Shown: positions 206-56,939 of the stretch, piece after piece
Position numbering within the stretch: the stretch's first letter is position 1
Layout of the letters: the number at the start of each line of letters is the position of its first letter
From: Blautia sp.
GTDB lineage: Bacteria > Bacillota > Clostridia > Lachnospirales > Lachnospiraceae
Direction of reading: 5' to 3'
NCBI GenBank assembly: GCA_021443885.1
Contig: JABUSW010000194.1
Coordinates: 1-56,939, forward strand
DNA: 56,939 nucleotides
Notes under the pieces: model-generated
Database searches by the model: none
The model's input: the letters and a program-made list of their open reading frames with translations, nothing else
What the model was told of the DNA's origin: nothing
Position numbers and translations under genes: made by a program

Positions 206-493
206 TTACTTTTTCCACCGTTTCTGACTCAATTCCACCATCTTGACGATTTCCTCATGTGGTCGTGCAATGACTGCAGAGCAGACCGGTTTTTTAATTG
301 CCTGGGCCTTTGCTGCTTCAACAGCTTCAGTGACAGCTGCTACATCGCCTTCGATTACCAGTGTCACCAATCGTCCGCCCAGTTTGCGCTCCCATGTGGA
401 GAATTCTACGTCTGCCGCCTTACACATAATATCAATTGCGTCCATGGCAGCAACAACTCCCACGATTTCAATAAAGCCATATGATTTATTCAT
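206..493 (-). CDS. BMC-H shell protein
   Basis: GFIE..G...A.DAIDIMCKAADV, LVTLVIEGDVAAVTEAVEA and VIARPH motifs of the BMC domain. Confidence 0.92.
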   Translation of the reverse strand: MNKSYGFIEIVGVVAAMDAIDIMCKAADVEFSTWERKLGGRLVTLVIEGDVAAVTEAVEAAKAQAIKKPVCSAVIARPHEEIVKMVELSQKRWKK

Positions 494-521
494 GAGCGAA
501 CTCCTTTAATGCAACCATTGA

Positions 522-797
522 TCAGATGCCTGGAAGGATCTTTTCCACATCATTGTGTGGTCTCGGAATTACATGTGTAGCTACCAGCTCACCAAGTCTG
601 GATGCTGCTGCGCTTCCGCTTTCTACTGCTGCCTTAACAGCACCAACATCTCCACGTACCATAACGGTTACAAGACCGGAACCGATCTTTTCTGTTCCAA
701 CCAATGTTACTTCAGCTGCCTTTGTCATTGCATCTGCTGCTTCAATTGCTGCTGTAAGTCCTCTTGTTTCAACCATTCCCAATGCTTCCTGTGCCAT
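522..797 (-). CDS. BMC-H shell protein, PduA/PduJ/EutM-like
   Basis: [10 protein letters not shown]...[38 protein letters not shown], a canonical BMC-H with GSG pore. Confidence 0.96.
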
Positions 798-849
798 GGT
801 AATATCCTCCTGAAAATTTATATACTGTTATATTATAATTCATGATAAG

Positions 850-1164
850 TCACGACTTATCCAACGCGCTGATCTTCAGCATTTTTTCCGTTCCTTCATC
901 CGGGTTCGGAATAATATAGTGCTGTACCACACCTGCAAGGCCTTCAGCCGCCGCAATACCGGCCTCCATTGCCGCCTCAACAGCTGCCACACTGCCTCTA
1001 TACTTAATACAGACAAGGAGCGGTACCGGAAGCGCATCTGCATTTCCTGGCTTGTTCTTGTCAAAGACTTCCAGATATACATCTGCAGCTTTGCATCCGG
1101 CATCTGCCGCTACAAATGCTGTGGCCAGACCAAACACTTCCAAAATTCCTACAGCTGCTGCCAT
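850..1164 (-). CDS. BMC-H shell protein with extended pore loop
   Basis: AVGILEVFG..AADAGCKAADV...RGSVAAVEAA..IIPNP; insertion DKNKPGNADALPVPL at the pore position. Confidence 0.88.
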   Translation of the reverse strand: MAAAVGILEVFGLATAFVAADAGCKAADVYLEVFDKNKPGNADALPVPLLVCIKYRGSVAAVEAAMEAGIAAAEGLAGVVQHYIIPNPDEGTEKMLKISALDKS

Positions 1165-1188
1165 AATCGTTCTCCTTTATCCTGTGGA

Positions 1189-2403
1189 CTATTTATTGAT
1201 AATGGCAATCTTCAGACCTGTCATAGCCAGATTCTTCTGATGTGCTTCATTGATCTCTTCCAACGGATATCTGTCAGAAATCAGTTCAGACATCGGAAGA
1301 CCGATTCCTTTTGCTCTCTTCAGGAAATCAAAGGTGGTCACATAATCTCTCAATGTATATACCCAGGATCCAACGAGATTGATTTCTTTTGAGCAAAGGT
1401 CAAAGTGCGGATTGATCGTAGCGTCTCCACCATTGATGAAGAAACCAAGTTCACAAAGACCACCGCCATTACGGATAAATTTATAAATATTCGCATGCGC
1501 TTTCGGGTTACCGGTACATTGGAAACCAAAGTCCGCAAGGTATCCGCCGAAAGCATCCTTCACACCACCTGCAAGCGCTTCAATGCCCTGATAATCAGCG
1601 AAATTAACGCTGACATCCGCGCCCATTTTCTTGGCAAATGCAAGTCGCTGCGCATTTCCGTCAACCGCACAGATATTCTCGATACCCATCGTGCGAAGGA
1701 TCGCGATACAGATCAGCCCGATCGGTCCGCATCCCTGAACAACAACTCTGGAGTTGAATTTCAGGATTCCGGTCGTTTTTGCTCTTTCTACTGCGTGGAT
1801 CAAAACTGCACAGGGCTCGATGAGGATTCTGGAATCCAGATCCAGATCACTTACGTTAAAGAAAGTAGAGCCAAATGCACCGCCTCTGATGAAAATGTAA
1901 TCCGAGAACCATCCATTCAGATGAATGTCATCGTCCGGAAGAAGCCCGTATACGTCTGCACCACCAACATTTTTCTTATTCAGGTCGAACATTGTGATAT
2001 CCGGATCATCCTTGAAAATCATACATGTTACGATTTTATCGCCAACCTTAACGGGTTTTCCGGCTGAGTCAACCTTCACATTTTTACCCATTGCAACGAT
2101 CTCGCCGGTTCCTTCATGTCCAAGGGCTACCGGGATCAGGCTGAATGGATCTCTCTTAAACTCGTGAGCATCTGTTCCACAGATACCACAGCCTTCTACT
2201 TTTACAAGAAGATCGTCATCTCCTAACGGTGGAATGGGGAATTCTTTGATATCATAATGCTCAAGAGCAGTAAGCATTGCAACTCTTGCTGTCTTCGGGA
2301 TCTGTCCTGCAGGTTTTGCTGCCGGTGCTGCGGAAGCATTTCCTGTCATTCCGGAAAGGACCTGTCTAACGATTTCTTCAATATTTACGTTGTTCATATC
2401 CAT
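1189..2403 (-). CDS. Zn-dependent (MDR family) alcohol dehydrogenase, probable propanol dehydrogenase, with N-terminal encapsulation peptide
   Basis: CGICGTD, GHEGTG and GCGPIG motifs; N-terminal amphipathic NIEEIVRQVLSGM followed by an Ala/Pro linker; BMC context. Confidence 0.88.
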   Translation of the reverse strand: MDMNNVNIEEIVRQVLSGMTGNASAAPAAKPAGQIPKTARVAMLTALEHYDIKEFPIPPLGDDDLLVKVEGCGICGTDAHEFKRDPFSLIPVALGHEGTGEIVAMGKNVKVDSAGKPVKVGDKIVTCMIFKDDPDITMFDLNKKNVGGADVYGLLPDDDIHLNGWFSDYIFIRGGAFGSTFFNVSDLDLDSRILIEPCAVLIHAVERAKTTGILKFNSRVVVQGCGPIGLICIAILRTMGIENICAVDGNAQRLAFAKKMGADVSVNFADYQGIEALAGGVKDAFGGYLADFGFQCTGNPKAHANIYKFIRNGGGLCELGFFINGGDATINPHFDLCSKEINLVGSWVYTLRDYVTTFDFLKRAKGIGLPMSELISDRYPLEEINEAHQKNLAMTGLKIAIINK

Positions 2404-2422
2404 GACTGCTTTTTCCTCCTGA

Positions 2423-3811
2423 TCAGCGAATGCAGAGGCTATCAGACATTACACAGCGTCTTCTCTTTGTAAAGGTGCTGGCACTTGTAAGGCCTTCACC
2501 GGTACGACTTGCAATAGTAAATGTACAATAGCCTTCGCCACCGAATCCGATTGCTGCATAAGAAGGAGCGTTTTTAACCAGGATTGCAGTGTCAATTGCT
2601 TTCGCGTATTTTGTAATGTTATCAATGTTTTTCGAATGGATGTGTGCAGAATGGCGGTTGCCATGTTCCAGCCATACAGCCTGTTCCACTGCATCATCAA
2701 AATCTTTTGCTCTAACCATACCGAGAATCGGCATCATAAGCTCTTCCGCGATCAGCGGATGTTCCTTCGGTCCTTCAAAAACGATGCAGCGGATATTTGC
2801 CGGAGCATTGATTCCAATCATACCGAGAAGGGTGCGTGCATCACGTCCAACGCATTTACGGTTCAGTCTTCCGCCCTTCAGAACGATTTCGGTCAGTTTC
2901 TTCTGTTCTTCTTCCGAAATCAGATAACAATCGTTCTCTGTCAGCAGGTAATGCATCAATTCATCTGCAATCGAAGAAACTGCAACGATCTCCTTCTCTG
3001 CAATACATGGCAGATTGTTATCGAAGGTACAGCCATTTACAATGTCCTGTGCCGCCTTACGGATGTCTGCTGTTTCATCCACAACTGCAGGCGGATTGCC
3101 TGCACCGGCACCGATACCGCGCTTTCCGGAGGAAAGCACTGCCGTTACTACACCCGGGCCGCCGGTAGCTGCGATAAGGGGAATGTCTTTATGCTTCATC
3201 ATAATGTCGCTGGTCTCAAGAGTTGGTTTTTCGCAGGATACAACAATGTTGTCCGGACCGCCGCATTCCAGAGAAGCTTCATTAATAAGGTTGATTGCGT
3301 ACAAAGATGTTTTGATTGCTGCCGGATGCGGGTTAAATACCACCGTATTTCCACCAGCCAGCATACCAATCGAGTTGCACAGAATCGTTTCACTTGGGTT
3401 TGTTGTCGGAGTAATCGCACCGATCACACCAAAAGGTCCCATTTCGATCAGAGTCAGACCTCTGTCTCCTGACCAGGCCACGGTAGAAATGTCTTCCGTT
3501 CCCGGTGTCTTATCTGCAACAAGGTGATGTTTGAGGATCTTATCACCTACATTACCCATACCTGTTTCTTCCACACCCATACGAGCGAATATTTCTGCGT
3601 TTTCATGTACCTTCTCACGGATACGGGAGATAATTCTTTCTCTCTGATCCATAGACATTTTACGAACAACTTTCTGTGCTTCTTTCGCAGCAGCAATTGC
3701 TGAATTCATATCTTTAAAAAGTCCATGCTGTCCGGATGGAGATGCCGCAATCTGCATTTTCGCCATAACTTCCTGTACAATTTCCTGTACCATTTTCTCA
3801 TTTACTGGCAT
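2423..3811 (-). CDS. pduP: CoA-acylating aldehyde (propionaldehyde) dehydrogenase, PduP/EutE family
   Basis: PTTNPS, ATGGPGVV, GAGAGNPP, catalytic LPCIAEK and TGEGLTS motifs; N-terminal encapsulation peptide MVQEIVQEVMAKM. Confidence 0.9.
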   Translation of the reverse strand: MPVNEKMVQEIVQEVMAKMQIAASPSGQHGLFKDMNSAIAAAKEAQKVVRKMSMDQRERIISRIREKVHENAEIFARMGVEETGMGNVGDKILKHHLVADKTPGTEDISTVAWSGDRGLTLIEMGPFGVIGAITPTTNPSETILCNSIGMLAGGNTVVFNPHPAAIKTSLYAINLINEASLECGGPDNIVVSCEKPTLETSDIMMKHKDIPLIAATGGPGVVTAVLSSGKRGIGAGAGNPPAVVDETADIRKAAQDIVNGCTFDNNLPCIAEKEIVAVSSIADELMHYLLTENDCYLISEEEQKKLTEIVLKGGRLNRKCVGRDARTLLGMIGINAPANIRCIVFEGPKEHPLIAEELMMPILGMVRAKDFDDAVEQAVWLEHGNRHSAHIHSKNIDNITKYAKAIDTAILVKNAPSYAAIGFGGEGYCTFTIASRTGEGLTSASTFTKRRRCVMSDSLCIR

Positions 3812-3839
3812 GAGATTGACCTCCTGTTATTTGTCGATA

Positions 3840-4691
3840 TTATTTTAATCCAAGCTGCGCAATCACCTGCTGCGTGATCTTAGCAACCAGTTCTGCGTCT
3901 GCGCTTGCCGGTGCAGCTTCGCCGCCTACGAAATCATACTGATATCCCGGGAACTGTTTGTAATCTTCGTGTTTGCAGGATCCACCGCAGTTATGGCAGT
4001 TTGTTTCGCCCTTGTTCAGGCAGATGCTTGCCGGATGTTTTCCTGGCATACCGAATTTACGACGGATCTCATAAAGCTTCTTGATGTTTTCTTTGTCAAA
4101 TTCCTTTGGTCCGCCAAGAACTTTGGATTTGTAAAGAAGCTCAGCGTAGAATTCAAGGCTTTCCATCTTCATATAAGCAGCATTGAGGTCTGTGCTCCAT
4201 GTAAGAGCGCCATGGTTCTCAAGAAGAACTGCATCAAAGTATGGAAGGTATTTCTCAAGGTTATCCGGAATTTCCATTGTGGAAGGTGTACCATATTCTG
4301 CAATCGGAACACATCCAAGAGCGATAACTGCTTCCGGCATGATCGGCTGTGTCAGCGGAATACCTGCAATTGCAAATGCGGTACCATACATTGGATGAGC
4401 GTGAACAACTGCACCCACATCCGGTCTCTTCTCATATACTCTCATATGCATTTTGATCTCAGAAGATGGTTTGAAGCCGGGATTCGCCTGAATTACATTA
4501 CCTTTGCTGTCTACTTTACAGATGAATTCTGGAGTCATGAAACCTTTGGATACACCTGTTGGTGTGCACAGCCATTCTGTATCGCTGATCTTAACAGAAA
4601 TATTACCGTCATTAGCAGCAACCATGTTACGGTTGTAGATACGTTTTCCAATGTCGCAAATCTGTTTTTTAACTTCGAATTCGTTTACCAT
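3840..4691 (-). CDS. Class II aldolase (L-fuculose/rhamnulose-1-phosphate aldolase-like) with C-terminal encapsulation peptide
   Basis: DGNIS, TPTGVSKG, PSSE..MH, VHAHP and LENHG Zn-aldolase motifs; C-terminal DAELVAKITQQVIAQL. Confidence 0.9.
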   Translation of the reverse strand: MVNEFEVKKQICDIGKRIYNRNMVAANDGNISVKISDTEWLCTPTGVSKGFMTPEFICKVDSKGNVIQANPGFKPSSEIKMHMRVYEKRPDVGAVVHAHPMYGTAFAIAGIPLTQPIMPEAVIALGCVPIAEYGTPSTMEIPDNLEKYLPYFDAVLLENHGALTWSTDLNAAYMKMESLEFYAELLYKSKVLGGPKEFDKENIKKLYEIRRKFGMPGKHPASICLNKGETNCHNCGGSCKHEDYKQFPGYQYDFVGGEAAPASADAELVAKITQQVIAQLGLK

Positions 4692-25930: not shown

Positions 25931-25983
25931 CAGGAAAGGAGCACCTCCCACTTCTGGATTCAGTGGGCAGATGCTCCTTTCTG
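25931..25983. terminator. Hairpin between the convergent gltD and gatD genes
   Basis: AAAGGAGCA..CCCACT / AGTGGG..TGCTCCTTT inverted repeat overlapping the gatD stop codon. Confidence 0.6.
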
Positions 25984-26712
25984 CTTCATACGCCGCTGCA
26001 TATCCTGATGCGCTGCGTTTTCATATTTATCTTCCAGTGGTTCCAATTCCAGGTTCGGATACTTATAGCGCAGTGCCGTCCGCAAAATACGATCCGCAAG
26101 AAGAGGATTTTTCGGCAAAACCGGTCCATGACTGTATGTGGCAAATACATTTTTGTACCTTGCCCCCTCCGTCTGGTCTTTTCCATTATTCCCATAGCCT
26201 GCCAGTATTTTCCCCATAGGCCGGACCCCTTCTCCCAGATAGGTTCGTCCGGAATGGTTTTCAAAACCAACGATGGTCATACCGCCATCCTGCTCATCCA
26301 TCCGGTACATATAATTCCCGATCATACGTTTCCTGCCTCCTATCGTATAAAGGTCTACTGCACCGATAAAATCACATTGGTGTCCATCCCAGGTCTTATA
26401 ATAATTTCCCAGCATCTGATATCCTCCGCAGATTGCCAGAAAAGTCTTCTCCTCTTCCACAGCGTTCCGAATCTGCTGTGCTTTTCCTTTGGCAAGATCC
26501 TGCAGCAAAACTTCCTGTTCGAAGTCCTGGCCTCCGCCAATAAAAAACAGATCATAGTCATTTACATTTAAGGGGTCCCCTACCGAGACCCCTGTTACAT
26601 TCGCTTGAATTCCTCGCCACTGCAGCCTTCTCTGCATGCAGAGGATATTACCCCGGTCCCCATACAGATTCAGGACATCCGGATACAAATGGCATATTCT
26701 CAATTCATACAT
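25960..26712 (-). CDS. gatD: Lipid II isoglutaminyl synthase, glutaminase subunit (CobQ-like class I GATase)
   Basis: NLYGDRGN, GGGQD, AICGGYQMLG, GFENHSG and YSHGPVLPKN motifs; adjacent to murT. Confidence 0.9.
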   Translation of the reverse strand: MYELRICHLYPDVLNLYGDRGNILCMQRRLQWRGIQANVTGVSVGDPLNVNDYDLFFIGGGQDFEQEVLLQDLAKGKAQQIRNAVEEEKTFLAICGGYQMLGNYYKTWDGHQCDFIGAVDLYTIGGRKRMIGNYMYRMDEQDGGMTIVGFENHSGRTYLGEGVRPMGKILAGYGNNGKDQTEGARYKNVFATYSHGPVLPKNPLLADRILRTALRYKYPNLELEPLEDKYENAAHQDMQRRMKQKGASAH

Positions 26713-26739
26713 AATCGATTACTCCTCTTTTGGAAATCC

Positions 26740-28110
26740 CTATTCCCAAAACTCCTTAAAACCATACTTGCTGCTGAATTTCTCTCGTATATCCAGCATC
26801 GCCGTATATGTCGGCATCAGATATACCGGCATCTTCTGCGCAATCATCTCCTGGATCACCGTATCATAATCCGGTATGACCCGAATCTTCTCCATTGGAA
26901 TTCCGGCATACTGAAAGCGCATAGCCATCTCATTTGCGCGGATGCCAGTGGTCCAGACACCGGTCAACCGTTCGGAAATATCTGCCAGCTTCTCAAAGTC
27001 CACATCCCAGATCCAGGAAATGTCGGTTCCATCCGCGTCCCGGTCATTCAATGCGGCGACAAACAATGCCGGCTCTGTAAGATTGCTGAGAAAGTTCAGA
27101 ACCTGATTGCATCCCGCCGGATTCTTGATCAATATCATGCGAATATCAGTACCTTGCACCGTGAATTTCTCCATTCGTCCAAAGCCGCATTCAAACTGAT
27201 TCAACGAATCGATCAGAAGTGCATCCTTCATATGCAGCACTTTTCCGACTGCCACAGCCGCAATTGCATTGTAAATGTTATAACCGCCGGGCAGATTGAT
27301 AAAGGTCTCATAGGATTTTCCATCCACGGAAATCTCAACCTGTGATCCATCCGGTGTATACTTCAGAACACGTTTTACCGTTATGGAAGTATCCGGTCTG
27401 TGATAACCGCAATGAGGACAGCGAAAACCGCCCAGATGTCCGAAGGTCCTGTAATCATACTCATATTCGGTCTTGCATTTGATGCAGTATGGTGCATCCG
27501 ATACTTCCTGCACTTTGTTCTTGTAGATCTCACATTCTACGCCATAGAAACGCACCGGGTTTGGAATCTGTTCCTGTAAGGATACGCTTAACGAACAATC
27601 TGCATTCAGGCATACCACCGCATTTACGGAATTTTGGATCCCTTCCAGAATGAAATTCAGAGTATGGGTAACTTCTCCATACCGATCCAGCTGGTCACGG
27701 AAAATATTTGTTACCACGATGCACTTTGCATCCACATATTTACTGACGGTCCGAAAGGCAGCTTCGTCACACTCGATCAAAGCATATCTGCATTTGCTTT
27801 TCCCGTTAATTCCTGCGTGCATTGCAAACTCTGCGGTGATACCGCTTAACATATTCGCTCCGGATTTATTGGCAAAATAGTTCCAATTTGCATTTATCAG
27901 GCTTTTTTCAATCATTCTGGAAGTGGTGGTTTTTCCATTGGTTCCGGTGACAATGATAGTAGTTACATTCTTTGCCAGAACTCCAAGAAGATCCGGCTGG
28001 ATCGCCAATGCCACTCTGCCTGGTACATTGGTTCCGCCTTTTCCCAGAATACGCAGGATAAAACGCGTCAGCTTGCACGCACTGACTGCACATACTGTCT
28101 TAAGTCCCAT
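26740..28110 (-). CDS. murT: Lipid II isoglutaminyl synthase, Mur-ligase subunit (DUF1727)
   Basis: VTGTNGKTTT, GANMLSG, NIFRDQLDRYGE, CxxC..CxxC Zn finger, LIKNPAG, DGTDISWIWDVDFE and PTYTAML motifs. Confidence 0.92.
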   Translation of the reverse strand: MGLKTVCAVSACKLTRFILRILGKGGTNVPGRVALAIQPDLLGVLAKNVTTIIVTGTNGKTTTSRMIEKSLINANWNYFANKSGANMLSGITAEFAMHAGINGKSKCRYALIECDEAAFRTVSKYVDAKCIVVTNIFRDQLDRYGEVTHTLNFILEGIQNSVNAVVCLNADCSLSVSLQEQIPNPVRFYGVECEIYKNKVQEVSDAPYCIKCKTEYEYDYRTFGHLGGFRCPHCGYHRPDTSITVKRVLKYTPDGSQVEISVDGKSYETFINLPGGYNIYNAIAAVAVGKVLHMKDALLIDSLNQFECGFGRMEKFTVQGTDIRMILIKNPAGCNQVLNFLSNLTEPALFVAALNDRDADGTDISWIWDVDFEKLADISERLTGVWTTGIRANEMAMRFQYAGIPMEKIRVIPDYDTVIQEMIAQKMPVYLMPTYTAMLDIREKFSSKYGFKEFWE

Positions 28111-40143: not shown

Positions 40144-40854
40144 CTATTCTCCCAAATATGCTTTCTGAACTGCTTCATTATGCAATAAATCGGAAGCTTT
40201 TCCTTCCAGCGTTACAGAACCGGTCTCAAGGACATATGCCCGGTCTGCTATGGACAATGCCTTCTTCGCATTCTGTTCCACCAGCAGCACAGTTGTACCT
40301 TCTGCACTGACTTCTTTGATGATCTCGAAAATCTCATTCACGAAGATCGGCGAAAGCCCCATCGACGGTTCATCCATCAGAATAATACCGGGACGGCTCA
40401 TCAAAGCACGTCCCATTGCCAGCATCTGCTGTTCTCCTCCGGACAGCGTACCGGCTGTCTGATTCTTTCGTTCTTCCAACCGCGGGAAATGTTTGTACAC
40501 CTGTTCAATTGTTTTATCAATTTCACTTTTATCACTTCTTGTATAAGCACCCATTTTCAGATTCTGCAATACCGTCATATTGGCAAATACACGTCTTCCT
40601 TCCGGAACATGTGCCATCCCCATACCGACGATCTTATGGGCCGGAATCCTGGAAATATCGGTACCATCGAATATCACCTGGCCTGTTTTTGCCCGCAGCA
40701 GACCTGTAATGGTATGAAGCGTTGTCGTCTTACCGGCACCATTGGCGCCGATCAGAGCAACGACCTCCCCTTTTTTTACTTCGAAGGAAACGCCCTTTAA
40801 GGCCTGAATCATTCCATAATAAACCTGAATATCTTTTACTTCCAGTAATGCCAT
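40144..40854 (-). CDS. livF: Branched-chain amino acid ABC transporter ATPase
   Basis: GANGAGKT, VPEGRRVF, LSGGEQQML, DEPS and LVEQN motifs. Confidence 0.93.
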   Translation of the reverse strand: MALLEVKDIQVYYGMIQALKGVSFEVKKGEVVALIGANGAGKTTTLHTITGLLRAKTGQVIFDGTDISRIPAHKIVGMGMAHVPEGRRVFANMTVLQNLKMGAYTRSDKSEIDKTIEQVYKHFPRLEERKNQTAGTLSGGEQQMLAMGRALMSRPGIILMDEPSMGLSPIFVNEIFEIIKEVSAEGTTVLLVEQNAKKALSIADRAYVLETGSVTLEGKASDLLHNEAVQKAYLGE

Positions 40855-40865
40855 TCTCTTTCCTC

Positions 40866-41624
40866 CTATTCACCCAGATATGCCTTGATAACTTCCGGAT
40901 TATGAAGTACTTCCGACGTTTCTCCCTCCGCAAGAACATGGCCGAAGTTCAACACTGTCAGCTCTTCGCAGATTCCGGATACCAGTTTCATATCGTGTTC
41001 GATCAGAAGAATTGTCATATCAAAATGATCTCTGACAAAACGGATCGTCTCCATCAGTTCCATTGTTTCATTGGGATTCATGCCTGCTGCCGGCTCGTCC
41101 AGAAGCAGAAGCTTCGGTCTGGTAGCCAGGGCCCGGGCGATCTCCAGCTTGCGCTGTTTTCCGTAGGGAAGATTGGAAGCCAGGGTTGCTGCCTCCTGGT
41201 CCAGATCAAACACTTTCAGCAATTCGATTGCCTCTTCGTCCATCTGCTTCTCGATCTTATGATACTTCGGAAGGCGCAGAATACCGGCCAAAAGGCTATA
41301 TTTATAATGCTCGTGAAGGCCGGCCTTTACATTATCCAACACTGTCAGTTTGCCGAAAAGGCGGATATTCTGGAAAGTACGGGCAACACCGGCCTTATTG
41401 ATATCAATCGTTTTCAGACCTGTGATATCCTTTCCATCCAGAGTAATCTTACCTTCATCCGGTTTATACACACCCGTCAGAAGGTTGAAAATCGTAGTCT
41501 TACCAGCGCCATTCGGGCCGATCAGGCCGTAAAGCTGTCCTTTTTCAATGGAGACATGGAAATCATCCACCGCATGCAGACCGCCAAAAGAAATATTCAA
41601 ATTGGTTACGTCAAGCATTGCCAT
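40866..41624 (-). CDS. livG: Branched-chain amino acid ABC transporter ATPase
   Basis: GPNGAGKT, RTFQNIRLF, LPYGKQRKLEIARA, DEPAAG and IEHDM motifs. Confidence 0.93.
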   Translation of the reverse strand: MAMLDVTNLNISFGGLHAVDDFHVSIEKGQLYGLIGPNGAGKTTIFNLLTGVYKPDEGKITLDGKDITGLKTIDINKAGVARTFQNIRLFGKLTVLDNVKAGLHEHYKYSLLAGILRLPKYHKIEKQMDEEAIELLKVFDLDQEAATLASNLPYGKQRKLEIARALATRPKLLLLDEPAAGMNPNETMELMETIRFVRDHFDMTILLIEHDMKLVSGICEELTVLNFGHVLAEGETSEVLHNPEVIKAYLGE

Positions 41625-41627
41625 CTT

Positions 41628-42698
41628 TTACGCCTCCTCTTTCTTTTTCCTGAAAAGCTTAGCCGTCAGGCGTTCCCGCATTTCAAGCGCTTTTGGTGAC
41701 CAGTTGACAAGCATCATAACGATCAGAACGATCGCATAAATCAGCATACGATAATCCGACAGGAATCGAAGCATCTCCGGCAGAGCCGTCAGAATGACAG
41801 CCGCAATAATCGAGCCACGGATATTTCCAATACCGCCAAGTACTACAAATACCAATACCAGAATAGAAGTATTGAAGTTGAACTTGGAAGCCTGCAGACC
41901 GGACAGATTGTGCGAGTAAAGTGCTCCGCCTGCTCCAGCCAGTGCTGCAGAAACCGTAAAGGCCATCAATTTATATTTGGTAATATTCAACCCTATGGAC
42001 TCAGCCGCGATCCGATTGTCGCGGATAGCCATAATGGCACGTCCATCCCTGGAATTGATCAGATTCAATACAATGAACAATGTGATCAGCAACAGAATAA
42101 TACCGGACAGGAAAGTCGAGCTTTTCGTAATGCCGGTAATTCCCTGCGGACCTGAAATCAATACTTTTCCGGAAAGGACATCCATATTCAGGTCAAACTC
42201 ACTCATGGTAGATACGTGGAATCCTTTATCATCGATACCAATATAGAACAGATTCAGAATATTCTTGATGATCTCGCCGAAAGCCAGTGTTACGATTGCC
42301 AGGTAGTCTCCCCGCAGGCGCAAAACAGGCACGCCGATCAGGAAGCCTAACAAAGCCGCTACTGCCGCCCCAACGATGATTGCCAGTGCAAAGCGAAGCG
42401 GTACTATGGTAATACTGTCACTGGTAAGCTTTGTAAAAAAAGCACTGGAAAAAGCACCGGCGCACATGAACCCTGCATGGCCAAGGCTCAGTTCTCCGGA
42501 GATTCCCACTACCAGATTCAAAGAAACCGCCAGAATGGAGTACACGCACAGAGATACCAGCAGACCGGAAAGCAGACTGGAAAGGTTTCCTGTACTCTTC
42601 ATCGTCTGCAGGACAGCAAATCCGGCAATGACGATTGCATAAGTGATCAGATTGCTTTTTAATGTTTTTTTCTTCATATTTTCCACCATCATAATCAC
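41628..42698 (-). CDS. livM: Branched-chain amino acid ABC transporter permease
   Basis: SLGHAGF, LRLRGDYLAIVTLAFGEI and AIRDNRIAAES motifs; exact start uncertain (42677-42698). Confidence 0.9.
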   Translation of the reverse strand: MIMMVENMKKKTLKSNLITYAIVIAGFAVLQTMKSTGNLSSLLSGLLVSLCVYSILAVSLNLVVGISGELSLGHAGFMCAGAFSSAFFTKLTSDSITIVPLRFALAIIVGAAVAALLGFLIGVPVLRLRGDYLAIVTLAFGEIIKNILNLFYIGIDDKGFHVSTMSEFDLNMDVLSGKVLISGPQGITGITKSSTFLSGIILLLITLFIVLNLINSRDGRAIMAIRDNRIAAESIGLNITKYKLMAFTVSAALAGAGGALYSHNLSGLQASKFNFNTSILVLVFVVLGGIGNIRGSIIAAVILTALPEMLRFLSDYRMLIYAIVLIVMMLVNWSPKALEMRERLTAKLFRKKKEEA

Positions 42699-43583
42699 CT
42701 ACACTTTCTCCTGAATCTTCTTTCCGAACAAGCCTGTCGGTTTCACCAGAAGGACAATGATCAGAACAGCAAACACTATGGCATCTGACATCTGAGAAGA
42801 AATATAGGCTTTTCCCAGAATCTCGATCACACCAAGAAGAAGACCACCGATCATGGCTCCGGGAATCGAGCCGATCCCTCCAAATACGGCTGCTGTGAAG
42901 GCTTTAATACCCGGCATGGAACCTGTATAAGGGGATAATGTCGGATAAGCAGAGCAGAGCAGAACACCCGCAATCGCTGCAAGTCCGGAACCAATTGCAA
43001 AAGTAAGTGCAATGGTACCGTTCACATTAATACCCATGAGCTGTGCTGCACCTTTGTCCTCAGAGACTGCCAGCATGGCCTGTCCCGGTTTTGTTTTATT
43101 GATAAAAGTTGTCAGAACGATCATGATCACAATACAGCAGATGACTGTCACAATCGACGTGGACGTAATAACCAGAGATCCATCAAATAATTTCATATTT
43201 GGCAATGTTACTACAGACTGGAAGCTTTTCGGTGCAGAACCAAAAATAAGCAGCACAACATTCTGCAGAAAATAGCTGACACCAATGGCTGTAATCAGCA
43301 CTGCAAGGGAAGAAGCTGCCTCCAGAAGCGGACGATATGCGATTGTTTCAATCACGATCCCAAGCACTGTACATACCACAATCGACGCAAGCACAGCCAC
43401 GATCGGATTAGCGCCGGCATTCATCGTTAACGTAAATGCAGCGTAACCGCCTACCATGATAACGTCACCGTGTGCGAAGTTCAGCATTTTCGCAATACCG
43501 TATACCATGGTATATCCCAAAGCGATTATGGCATATACACTGCCAAGGCTGATCCCATTTACTAAATAAGAAATAAAACTCAT
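42699..43583 (-). CDS. livH: Branched-chain amino acid ABC transporter permease
   Basis: YAIIALGYTMVYG...NFAHG and KAFTAAVFGGIGS motifs; ATG 43583 with a GAGGTG RBS. Confidence 0.93.
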   Translation of the reverse strand: MSFISYLVNGISLGSVYAIIALGYTMVYGIAKMLNFAHGDVIMVGGYAAFTLTMNAGANPIVAVLASIVVCTVLGIVIETIAYRPLLEAASSLAVLITAIGVSYFLQNVVLLIFGSAPKSFQSVVTLPNMKLFDGSLVITSTSIVTVICCIVIMIVLTTFINKTKPGQAMLAVSEDKGAAQLMGINVNGTIALTFAIGSGLAAIAGVLLCSAYPTLSPYTGSMPGIKAFTAAVFGGIGSIPGAMIGGLLLGVIEILGKAYISSQMSDAIVFAVLIIVLLVKPTGLFGKKIQEKV

Positions 43584-43612
43584 AAACCACCTCATGCTTT
43601 ATATGTTGCATA

Positions 43613-43685: not shown

Positions 43686-44840
43686 TTACTGTGCGTTTTC
43701 GAAAGCCACATATGCGCCATCTTTAATTACAACAGCTGTAGGAGTCTTGGCAACCTTTCCATCTGCTGTCCATGTCATAACGCCTGTAAGTCCGGAAACT
43801 TCGATCTCTGTGAAGGCTTCCTTCATAGCATCACATACTGCAGAAGCATCCATGTCTGCTGTAAGCTCTTTTGCTTCCATAGCTGCTTTCAGAGCATATA
43901 CACAGTCATATCCGTCAGCTGCAAACTGATTCGGGATATCTTCGTGCTGTTCCTGGAAGGTAGTAACAAAGTTAACAGTTGCATCATCGGTTGCATCTGC
44001 TGCGAATGGTGTCAGAAGCATAACGCCTTCTGCAAGAGTTGTGTCAAAACCTTCTACGGTAAGAATTCCGTCCATACCGTCTACGCCAAACCATACCGGT
44101 GCGAATTCAGCATCAGCTGCCTGTTTCAGGATAACTGCTGCTGCATCATAATAGATTGGAAGGAATACCAGCTCTGCACCTGCATCTTTTGCTGCCTGGA
44201 TCTGTGCAGAGAAGTCTGTCTTGGAGTCATCCGTAAAGGAAGTTTCCGAAACGATCTCAAAGTTCTGGTTTTCTGCTTCTGCACGGAATGTTGCATAAAT
44301 ACCAGCGGAGTATGCGTCTGCGCTATTATAGATTACTGCAACCTTTGTAGCATCAAGGTTATTAGCAATATACTGTGCAGATGCAGTTCCCTGTGCCGGG
44401 TCTGTAAAGCAAACCTGGAAAAGGTTGTCACCGGCTTCCAGTACCTTCTCAGAAGAAGCAGACGGTGTCAGCATAAATACGTTGTCATTTGCAGCTTCTG
44501 TAGAAACTGCGATACATGGGTTTGTTGTAACGCAGCCAACAACTGCCTGTACGCCCCAGTCTTTCAAAGTATTGTAAGCGTTTACCGATTTCTCAGCATC
44601 ATGTTCATCATCCTGTGCGTTGAACTCAACCTGCATTCCATTGATACCGCCGGCTGCATTGATCTCATCAACTGCGATCTGTGCGCCCCACATAGCATGT
44701 GTACCATAAATTGCAGCTGCTCCGGTAAGTGGTCCGATTCCACCGATTTTCCATGTATCTTCTGCAAATACTGCCGTGGAAAGCATTGTCGCTGCCATTG
44801 CTGTAGCCATTGTGAGGCTGAGAGCCTTTTTCAAATTCAT
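43686..44840 (-). CDS. livK: Branched-chain amino acid ABC transporter substrate-binding protein
   Basis: IGGIGPLTG..A.YG, DEINAAGG, FTDPAQG, YS.G and QFAADGYD motifs; operon context; SPase I-type signal peptide. Confidence 0.88.
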   Translation of the reverse strand: MNLKKALSLTMATAMAATMLSTAVFAEDTWKIGGIGPLTGAAAIYGTHAMWGAQIAVDEINAAGGINGMQVEFNAQDDEHDAEKSVNAYNTLKDWGVQAVVGCVTTNPCIAVSTEAANDNVFMLTPSASSEKVLEAGDNLFQVCFTDPAQGTASAQYIANNLDATKVAVIYNSADAYSAGIYATFRAEAENQNFEIVSETSFTDDSKTDFSAQIQAAKDAGAELVFLPIYYDAAAVILKQAADAEFAPVWFGVDGMDGILTVEGFDTTLAEGVMLLTPFAADATDDATVNFVTTFQEQHEDIPNQFAADGYDCVYALKAAMEAKELTADMDASAVCDAMKEAFTEIEVSGLTGVMTWTADGKVAKTPTAVVIKDGAYVAFENAQ

Positions 44841-44875
44841 AATAATTTCCTCCTTCTTTTATCAGATGATGTCAA

Positions 44876-55650: not shown

Positions 55651-56939
55651 TCATTCATTATTGGTTTCTTCTTGTTTTATATATCCTTCCGTTTTCTCTA
55701 TGCTGTCAGACCGTTCTGTCTCTGCACGATCTTCTGCTGCATCTGCACCAGCCTCCTGTTCGGCAGCCTCCACGGTCGCTTCCGGCTCTGCATGACCTTC
55801 TGCTGCATCTGCACCAGCCTCCTGTTCGGCAGCCTCCACGGTCGCTTCCGACTCTGCATGACCTTCTGCTGCGTCTGCACCGGTCTCCTGTTCGGCAGTC
55901 TCCACGGTCGCTTCCGGCTCTGCATGGCCTTCTGCCGCATCTGCACCGGTCTCCTGCTCGACAACCTCCACGGCCGGTTCTTCCGTCTCGTTGACGGACT
56001 GTTCCATTTCAGGCACTTCGCACACCTTTGTGTCTGCCTGTTCAGAATTCTCCGGCACCGGTTCCGACTCTTTGCTGTCGTTCTGTCCCATTTCCGCATC
56101 TGCCATTGGCACTTCTCTGCCGCTGCGTTTGGCTTCCCGCTGCTCTGCTTTTCGTTTCTTCGCTTCTTTGTAGTCTTCCTCTTCCTGCAGAAGCATTTCC
56201 ACTTCCATCAGCAGCTCCTGCACAGAAACCTCTCCTTCCTCTTCCATTTTTCGTTGGGTTTCATAGAAATGCTCGCGTCTTTCTTTCCGATACTTGCTGC
56301 GTTTTTTTTCCATTCGTCTTCCGGTGATCACAGCTGTACAAAACACAAAGAACAATACTGCGGAAATAAAAACACTGACCGGAATGTTCAGTTCCGGTAT
56401 CCGAATCTTCTCTGCCCGAAACCAGGAAATGACGGTCTGTCCAAGCCCATATCCGGCCAGCGCAGACATCAGAACCTCTCCGCTAAACTTTTTTCTGCGA
56501 AATCTTGCTAATATAAACAAAAACAGCAGCAGACACCAGATACTCTCATACAAAAACAATGGATGTACCTGCACGCAGAAAACGTCATTCAAGGATACCA
56601 GATTCTCACGAATCAGTGCACTTACTTCCCCGCTTCTGACAGAGGACAACGGCATCTGCATTGCCAAAAGGGATTCCGTGTATTCCCCAATGATCTCTCT
56701 ATTAAAGAAATATCCCCATACCCCCACCGTTCTGCCAAGCAGCAGTCCCGGTGCAATGATATCTCCAATTGCAGAGAAAGAAATACGACGGATCTGGCAG
56801 TACAGCCACGCTATGAGCATCGCACCGATAAGCGCTCCATACAGCTCCGCCCCACCTCCGCGAATATTCAGGCTTTCTGCCAGGGAATTGCGGTAAATAT
56901 TCCAGTTCAGCAAAACATAACCGGCTCTGGCACCGACAA
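55651..56939 (-). CDS. lgt: Prolipoprotein diacylglyceryl transferase homologue (divergent, 5'-truncated by the window) with an acidic repeat tail
   Basis: Frame is open to the window edge (VGARAGYV); GG..LYG, FFNRE..G and HPLFLYES motifs present, but several catalytic residues are substituted. Confidence 0.75.
   Translation of the reverse strand, partial: VGARAGYVLLNWNIYRNSLAESLNIRGGGAELYGALIGAMLIAWLYCQIRRISFSAIGDIIAPGLLLGRTVGVWGYFFNREIIGEYTESLLAMQMPLSSVRSGEVSALIRENLVSLNDVFCVQVHPLFLYESIWCLLLFLFILARFRRKKFSGEVLMSALAGYGLGQTVISWFRAEKIRIPELNIPVSVFISAVLFFVFCTAVITGRRMEKKRSKYRKERREHFYETQRKMEEEGEVSVQELLMEVEMLLQEEEDYKEAKKRKAEQREAKRSGREVPMADAEMGQNDSKESEPVPENSEQADTKVCEVPEMEQSVNETEEPAVEVVEQETGADAAEGHAEPEATVETAEQETGADAAEGHAESEATVEAAEQEAGADAAEGHAEPEATVEAAEQEAGADAAEDRAETERSDSIEKTEGYIKQEETNNE
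55731..55980. repeat. 66-bp tandem repeat (~3.8 copies) encoding the 22-aa unit AEPEATVEAAEQEAGADAAEGH
   Basis: Units start at 55731, 55797, 55863 and 55929 and differ by few substitutions. Confidence 0.92.

What the first reader, a model, noticed from the sequence alone, without database searches (positions are those of the whole stretch)
44740..44840. LivK binding protein has no lipobox in a monoderm - possible lipoprotein-independent anchoring linked to the degenerate Lgt
Seen: the N-terminus MNLKKALSLTMATAMAATMLSTAVFA-EDTWK has an SPase I-like V-F-A site and no Cys near it. There is no C-terminal TM, LPxTG or SLH anchor. The other exported proteins in the window (DUF1002, both hydrolases, 5'-nucleotidase) also lack a lipobox. 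Known: Gram-positive ABC binding proteins are normally Lgt-lipidated lipoproteins. Inference: together with the altered Lgt, this lineage may have reduced or abandoned diacylglyceryl lipoproteins and may retain binding proteins another way (uncleaved signal anchor, wall binding or a periplasm-like space). That would matter for TLR2 recognition if this is a gut commensal.
Basis: inference. Interest (0 to 1): 0.7.

Follow-up and report, generated by a model that had tools for sequence, protein, structure and literature searches.

The report
Gut Blautia with lipid-free binding proteins
In this single-membrane gut bacterium and several related genera, the nutrient-binding proteins of ABC importers lack the lipid-anchor signal and tether that most relatives keep, although lipid-anchoring genes are present, so they are predicted to be released as free proteins and likely held between membrane and wall, as in a Gram-negative periplasm.

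Summary
Confirmed and much wider than one gene, but the proposed cause is wrong. LivK (43686-44840, minus) has a signal peptidase I-type end (VFA|EDTW), no Cys before residue 103 and no linker. Of 35 intact transporter binding proteins in this Blautia-group genome, none has lipobox plus linker. The state is genome-wide: in 12 genomes whose LivK lacks a lipobox, 35 of 37 MetQ, amino-acid and OppA binding proteins lack it too, against 0 of 46 in 18 control Lachnospiraceae. It needs at least two changes on an RpoB tree. Lipoproteins are not abandoned: full-length Lgt and LspA exist, and the PrsA-like protein keeps its lipobox in 12 of 12. The window's Lgt is cut by the contig end and is a decaying paralogue, also in lipobox-keeping relatives. 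No Omp85 (0 of 5) or shared S-layer was found. Best reading, inferred: cleaved, soluble binding proteins retained behind the wall. No paper reporting this turned up in ten searches; the scan noted an analogue in Acidimicrobiales (e1-5266485). It makes the Gram-positive periplasm question testable in cultured human-gut Blautia.

The parts
43686..44840 (-). LivK/LivJ-family branched-chain amino acid binding protein, 384 aa, no lipobox, no linker, no C-terminal anchor
44763..44840 (-). Predicted Sec/SPase I signal peptide, residues 1-26, ending V-F-A; first beta-strand starts at residue 30
   Evidence: pLDDT <50 for 1-26, strand E30-36
44849..44854 (-). Ribosome-binding site AGGAGG, 8 nt before the ATG
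42699..43595 (-). LivH-type permease; loop length same as in lipobox-type systems
   Evidence: name from operon context and recall
41628..42698 (-). LivM-type permease; extracellular loop same length as in lipobox-type systems
   Evidence: name from operon context and recall
40866..41624 (-). LivG-type ABC ATPase
   Evidence: Walker A in the translation; name recalled
40144..40854 (-). LivF-type ABC ATPase
   Evidence: Walker A and LSGGEQ in the translation; name recalled
55651..56939 (-). Lgt paralogue with altered core motifs and an acidic repeat tail, cut by the contig end; not the only Lgt of the genome and not tied to the lipobox loss

Best explanation
LivK and the other transporter binding proteins of this genome carry a signal peptidase I-type signal and no lipobox or tether, so they are predicted to be cut free after export and likely work as soluble shuttles held between the membrane and the cell wall. 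Shown in sequence: lipobox and linker are lost together across unrelated binding-protein families; Lgt, LspA and SPase I genes are present; lipoboxes are kept on the PrsA-like protein and on some orphan or sensor-linked binding folds. Inferred: cleavage (about 0.8). Inferred and weaker: retention by the wall acting as a size and perhaps charge sieve for these acidic proteins of about 260-560 residues, with no dedicated barrier identified (about 0.6 if cleaved). The trait behaves as a property of the host lineage rather than of the gene, which points to some envelope change that made tethering unnecessary.
For: Own genome: of 35 intact transporter binding proteins, 32 have Ala directly before the first acidic residue (Ala is 31% of the h-region) and 26 have Val or Ala at -3. 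Median peak hydrophobicity is 1.8, against 2.5-3.6 for four true single-pass anchors in the window. Lipobox-type LivK orthologues have 9-49 residues between Cys and the first strand (median 24, n=67), whereas SPI-type have 28-35 residues in all before it. Panel defined by LivK alone: 35 of 37 against 0 of 46 SPI-type in three other families. SBP_bac_1 in five other genera: 27 SPI-type, 1 ambiguous, 1 lipobox, 1 membrane anchor of 30 read out of 59 hits. PrsA-like lipobox in 12 of 12. Several other exported enzymes have signal-like N-termini and no Pfam anchor domain or C-terminal helix: two rhamnosidase families, an arylsulfotransferase, a 5'-nucleotidase, and M13, S41 and C11 peptidases. One origin is rejected on RpoB, p-AU 0.021.
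Against: No barrier was found. Omp85: 0 of 5 genomes. SLH: weak single hits in only 2 of 12 SPI genomes and none in this one. The one S-layer-like Ig protein of this genome was found in 0 of 39 other genomes. Higher acidity of SPI-type LivK (median net 10.8 against 8.5 per 100 residues) does not hold in all sister comparisons; G014 and G022 are as acidic. Codon bias relative to RpoB is not higher than in lipobox-type LivK (p=0.22, 12 against 18). SignalP was not available, so classes come from patterns and reading by eye. Nothing here shows localisation. Bacillus lgt mutants shed such proteins into the medium (own knowledge), so an ordinary wall leaks. Kin are not independent: the 12 SPI genomes form about three lineages.
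Confidence: 0.5

Rival explanations
1. The proteins are cleaved and largely leak into the medium, mucus or cell aggregates; uptake works through high output and rebinding to the permeases, with no real compartment.
For: No barrier gene found. Binding proteins fill many of the top codon-adaptation ranks, LivK 29 of 2328.
Against: Codon bias is no higher than in tethered orthologues. Steady loss of dozens of abundant proteins would be costly, yet the state persists in several lineages; the cost argument is inference.
Confidence: 0.2
2. The signal peptide is not cleaved and serves as a membrane anchor in place of the lipid.
For: It needs no new barrier. The c-region plus 3-8 residues is about as long as the shortest lipoprotein linker, 9 residues.
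Against: Strong -1 Ala and -3 Val/Ala pattern across unrelated families and low hydrophobicity. Sensor-linked binding folds that do look anchored have different, longer Leu/Val-rich segments. SPase I is present.
Confidence: 0.12
3. The proteins are cleaved but held by non-covalent binding to the permease, a wall polymer or an unrecognised scaffold or non-SLH surface layer.
For: Highly variable surface-layer proteins can escape these searches; this genome has one such candidate.
Against: LivH and LivM loops have the same length in both states. LivK has no binding domain. Mature LivK is strongly acidic, a poor match for anionic wall polymers (inference). The candidate is absent from 39 other genomes searched.
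Confidence: 0.13
4. One reading: decay of Lgt forced, or goes with, loss of lipoproteins.
For: The window copy has changed motifs (GRTVGVWGY and GQTVISW where others have GRWGN and GRFxIE), and the lipoprotein set is small.
Against: A second, full-length Lgt and an LspA are present. The paralogue is altered in lipobox-keeping G014 and G022, and five other SPI genera have one canonical Lgt. G136 and G162 have only the second Lgt type and keep lipoboxes.
Confidence: 0.05

Closest known systems
Lipoprotein binding proteins of monoderm ABC importers (for example 45 of 89 lipoproteins in Parageobacillus, PMC13068155; the predicted lipid-anchored SBP of Blautia producta, PMC10318527; passages read)
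   Same: Same Pfam families and operon layout; orthologues 50-65% identical in other Lachnospiraceae carry lipobox plus linker.
   Different: No lipobox and no linker in 35 of 35 intact transporter binding proteins here, two having a lipobox-like Cys followed by an AxA site.
Soluble periplasmic binding proteins of diderms (E. coli LivJ/LivK; PDB 2liv, 1usg)
   Same: Same fold family; the folded domain starts within 3-4 residues of the predicted cleavage site.
   Different: No Omp85 found, so no outer membrane is evident. Even MetQ, a lipoprotein in many diderms (PMC8416018 title for Neisseria; otherwise recalled), is SPI-type here.
Inner wall zone, the 'Gram-positive periplasm' (Matias and Beveridge 2005, seen only as cited in PMC3415414)
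   Same: A space between membrane and wall that could hold soluble proteins.
   Different: PMC3415414 says data on its proteins are too limited for prediction; in those organisms binding proteins are lipid-tethered. Its presence here is not tested.
Earlier scan note e1-5266485, an Acidimicrobiales genus with lipid-free binding proteins
   Same: Same pattern reported: SPI-type binding proteins and a lipid pathway cut to a few clients.
   Different: Different phylum and uncultured; an unchecked AI note. Here the trait occurs in cultured gut species and has same-genus controls.

Membership tests
LivJ/LivK binding protein (PF13458) | Peripla_BP_6 domain in an operon with two permeases and two ATPases | tested here: met
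Bacterial lipoprotein (Lgt/LspA substrate) | Lipobox Cys at the end of the signal peptide | tested here: not met
   first Cys at residue 103
Bacterial lipoprotein (Lgt/LspA substrate) | Flexible tether between anchor and folded domain | tested here: not met
   strand 1 starts at residue 30; lipobox orthologues have 9-49 residues
SPase I-released soluble binding protein | n/h/c signal with small residues at -3 and -1, and SPase I in the genome | tested here: met
   pattern-based, SignalP not available
SPase I-released soluble binding protein | Actual cleavage and soluble, cell-associated location | not testable with these tools
   needs proteomics and fractionation
Diderm envelope | Omp85/BamA | tested here: not met
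   0 of 5 genomes, four of them 99-100% complete
Diderm envelope | Lipid A/LPS genes, TolC, porins | not tested
   no search made
SLH-anchored S-layer | SLH-domain proteins | tested here: not met
   none in G000; weak single hits in 2 of 12 SPI genomes
Lineage lacking lipoprotein biogenesis | No intact Lgt/LspA and no lipobox clients | tested here: not met
Inner wall zone retention | Space between membrane and wall that holds soluble proteins | not testable with these tools
   needs cryo-electron tomography and release assays

The most novel reading that the evidence does not exclude
Several Lachnospiraceae lineages, including common human-gut Blautia species, have separately evolved a tight, functional periplasm without an outer membrane. 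An as yet unrecognised wall barrier holds free binding proteins and enzymes, and the cells have shed most of their lipoprotein mass and with it much of their TLR2 signal.
Probability: 0.3. Interest if true: 0.88.

Novelty: new variant of a known kind. Interest (0 to 1): 0.72.

Why it matters
Lipid tethering of binding proteins is a textbook rule for single-membrane bacteria. Here it is broken genome-wide, in more than one lineage, with same-genus controls that keep the rule. The LivK form without lipobox carries the names Blautia luti, B. schinkii, B. acetigignens and B. glucerasea in public sources, with B. faecis in the same 90% cluster as one of them, so cultured species are available. They give a direct test of whether a Gram-positive wall can hold a working periplasm. 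Binding proteins are about half of the lipoproteins in a typical monoderm (PMC13068155). Here they rank at the top by codon adaptation while the residual lipoproteins rank 299 or lower, so a low lipoprotein load and weak TLR2 stimulation are predicted but untested.

Tried and rejected
Lgt decay as cause: rejected. Wrong start hiding a lipobox: rejected. Outer membrane: Omp85 not found. SLH layer: not linked to the state. S-layer-like Ig protein on C236: only in this genome, by single sequence (0 of 29 others) and by profile (0 of 39). Extra permease loop: none. Charge-sieve signature: overall shift but mixed sister contrasts (the pI values printed sit at the program's floor of 4.05). Higher expression: not significant. 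SPase I expansion: 2, 5 and 3 hits in three SPI genomes against 2 and 2 in two controls, inconclusive. The first RpoB tree had a wrong-strand row for G162 and was replaced. Atlas search on the C227 repeat protein gave nothing usable. No complex prediction was run, as it would not address location. Paper searches showed no report of this; I saw listings and abstract starts only, plus term passages of PMC10318527, PMC3415414, PMC13068155 and PMC13648455 (the last not relevant). No supplements were read, and subscription papers are mostly not covered.

Full report
Observation. The gene at 43686-44840 (minus) encodes a 384-residue PF13458 binding protein heading a liv-type operon. The start is secure: AGGAGG lies 8 nt upstream and the frame is closed 6 codons earlier. 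The signal ends V-F-A before E-D-T-W; the first Cys is residue 103; there is no LPxTG or hydrophobic tail. The AlphaFold model leaves residues 1-26 unmodelled and starts strand 1 at residue 30. The organism belongs to the Blautia group of Lachnospiraceae: LivK proteins from same-genus genomes carry Blautia names in public sources. The GTDB label Blautia_A is my inference.

Lipoprotein pathway. The genome (89% complete) has two Lgt hits and one LspA. The window copy is cut by the contig end and has changed motifs. The C40 copy is full length, of the GRIGC..GCCYG type, and is conserved across the genus. The long-tailed copy is altered to varying degrees in the genus, including G014 and G022, which keep lipoboxes on binding proteins. 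Five other genera with lipobox-free binding proteins have one Lgt hit with canonical motifs, and G136 and G162 have only the GCCYG type and keep lipoboxes (52 of the 65 listed Lgt places were aligned). About 14 lipobox proteins remain by pattern; one search lists 13, two of them doubtful, and three more appear. The PrsA-like protein has a lipobox in 12 of 12 SPI genomes. Lgt decay therefore does not explain the finding.

Genome-wide pattern. Six Pfam searches hit 53 ORFs. I set aside 18: 5 LacI-type regulators, 4 with no readable start, 1 fused to a permease and 8 orphan or sensor-linked. Other binding-protein families were not searched. None of the remaining 35 has lipobox plus linker. Thirty-two have Ala directly before the first acidic residue (h-region background 31%), 26 have Val or Ala at -3, and median peak hydrophobicity is 1.8 against 2.5-3.6 for four real anchors. 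Two have a lipobox-like Cys followed by an uncharged stretch and an AxA site, which may be vestigial or may still be lipidated. Of the 8 orphan or sensor-linked ones, one has a lipobox and two have anchor-like segments; similar cases occur in G002 and G032.

Relatives. In the genus, 27 of 29 LivK read are SPI-type (33 of 36 genomes had a hit; 4 were not fetched); G014 and G022 have lipobox plus linker. In the family, I read 60 of the 114 hits from other genera, chosen mostly from the top scores and so probably enriched for the SPI type: 5 SPI, 54 with lipobox (2 corrected by eye), 1 truncated with a linker. With LivK alone defining a panel of 12 SPI and 18 lipobox genomes, the MetQ, amino-acid and OppA families gave 35 of 37 SPI-type against 0 of 46. 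These were mostly the best hit per genome, with three control rows corrected by eye. The two exceptions are a second MetQ-like protein in G212 and an OppA-like protein beside a sensor-like gene in G006. One of the 35 lies in a longer frame and may be fused to its permease. SBP_bac_1 in the five other genera gave 27 SPI-type, 1 ambiguous, 1 lipobox and 1 anchored of 30 read among 59 hits. An exported FKBP-like protein has switched in 4 of 10 readable SPI genomes, so conversion reaches beyond binding proteins but unevenly.

Evolution. On RpoB (30 rows, quick tree) the state needs 3 changes, 2 of them forced by strong branches, and one clade is rejected at p-AU 0.021; this genome's row is only 32% filled. 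On the LivK+LivH tree (162 rows, some duplicates) I count about 7 changes by hand, including six lipobox forms nested among SPI forms and a 13-row clade with Cys plus downstream AxA; several branches are weak. This suggests that transferred genes take on the anchor type of their host, but the hosts of the six nested forms were not tested.

Mechanism. Shown: coupled loss of lipobox and linker, a cleavage-type pattern, and Lgt, LspA and SPase I genes. Inferred: release as soluble proteins, and retention between membrane and wall. Indirect support comes from exported acidic enzymes without a recognisable anchor. Against it, no barrier was identified, permease loops are unchanged, acidity contrasts are mixed and codon bias is no higher than in controls. 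Leakage with rebinding, non-covalent retention and an uncleaved anchor remain open.

Known and new. The parts are ordinary; the combination of a single-membrane cell with diderm-style free binding proteins is not what the papers I saw describe. PMC13068155 (passages) states the lipoprotein rule for monoderms, PMC10318527 (passages) predicts a lipid anchor for a B. producta binding protein, and PMC3415414 (passages) calls inner-wall-zone prediction unreliable. Ten searches (listings and abstract starts) found no report, but coverage of subscription papers and supplements is limited. The scan has an unchecked analogue in Acidimicrobiales and nothing by sequence for this protein. Verdict: real, lineage-level, a new variant of a known kind, mechanism inferred; interest 0.72.

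Noticed in passing
G000 C227:2051-3142 (L427): Exported, very acidic 363-aa protein with three copies of an about 95-residue repeat; codon-adaptation rank 19 of 2328; no real Pfam hit and no usable Atlas hit.
   Followed up: partly
G000 C236:2460-3441 (L430): Cut-off, Ala/Lys/Thr-rich exported protein of an about 800-aa Ig-like family, S-layer-like by composition; not found in 39 other genomes, so possibly strain-specific or a contaminant contig.
   Followed up: yes
L037, L046, L048-L055, L061-L063; G000 C151 and C25: Signal peptides with a lipobox-like Cys followed by a short uncharged stretch and an AxA site; possible intermediates of the switch.
   Followed up: partly
window 55720-55970: Several near-identical acidic repeats in the tail of the Lgt paralogue; same-genus copies also have long acidic tails.
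   Followed up: partly
G000 C77:8309-8797 (L433): Oxaloacetate decarboxylase gamma-chain domain preceded by a cleavable-looking signal peptide.
   Followed up: no
G000 C199:1389-3278: Permease and binding domain (PotC/PotD-like, name recalled) in one open frame, a third way of tethering a binding domain.
   Followed up: no
window 25960-28110: MurT/GatD-like pair (name recalled from the translations), in line with a monoderm-type wall.
   Followed up: no
window 206-4691: Microcompartment shell genes with aldolase and aldehyde and alcohol dehydrogenases, likely fucose/rhamnose-propanediol use (recalled).
   Followed up: no
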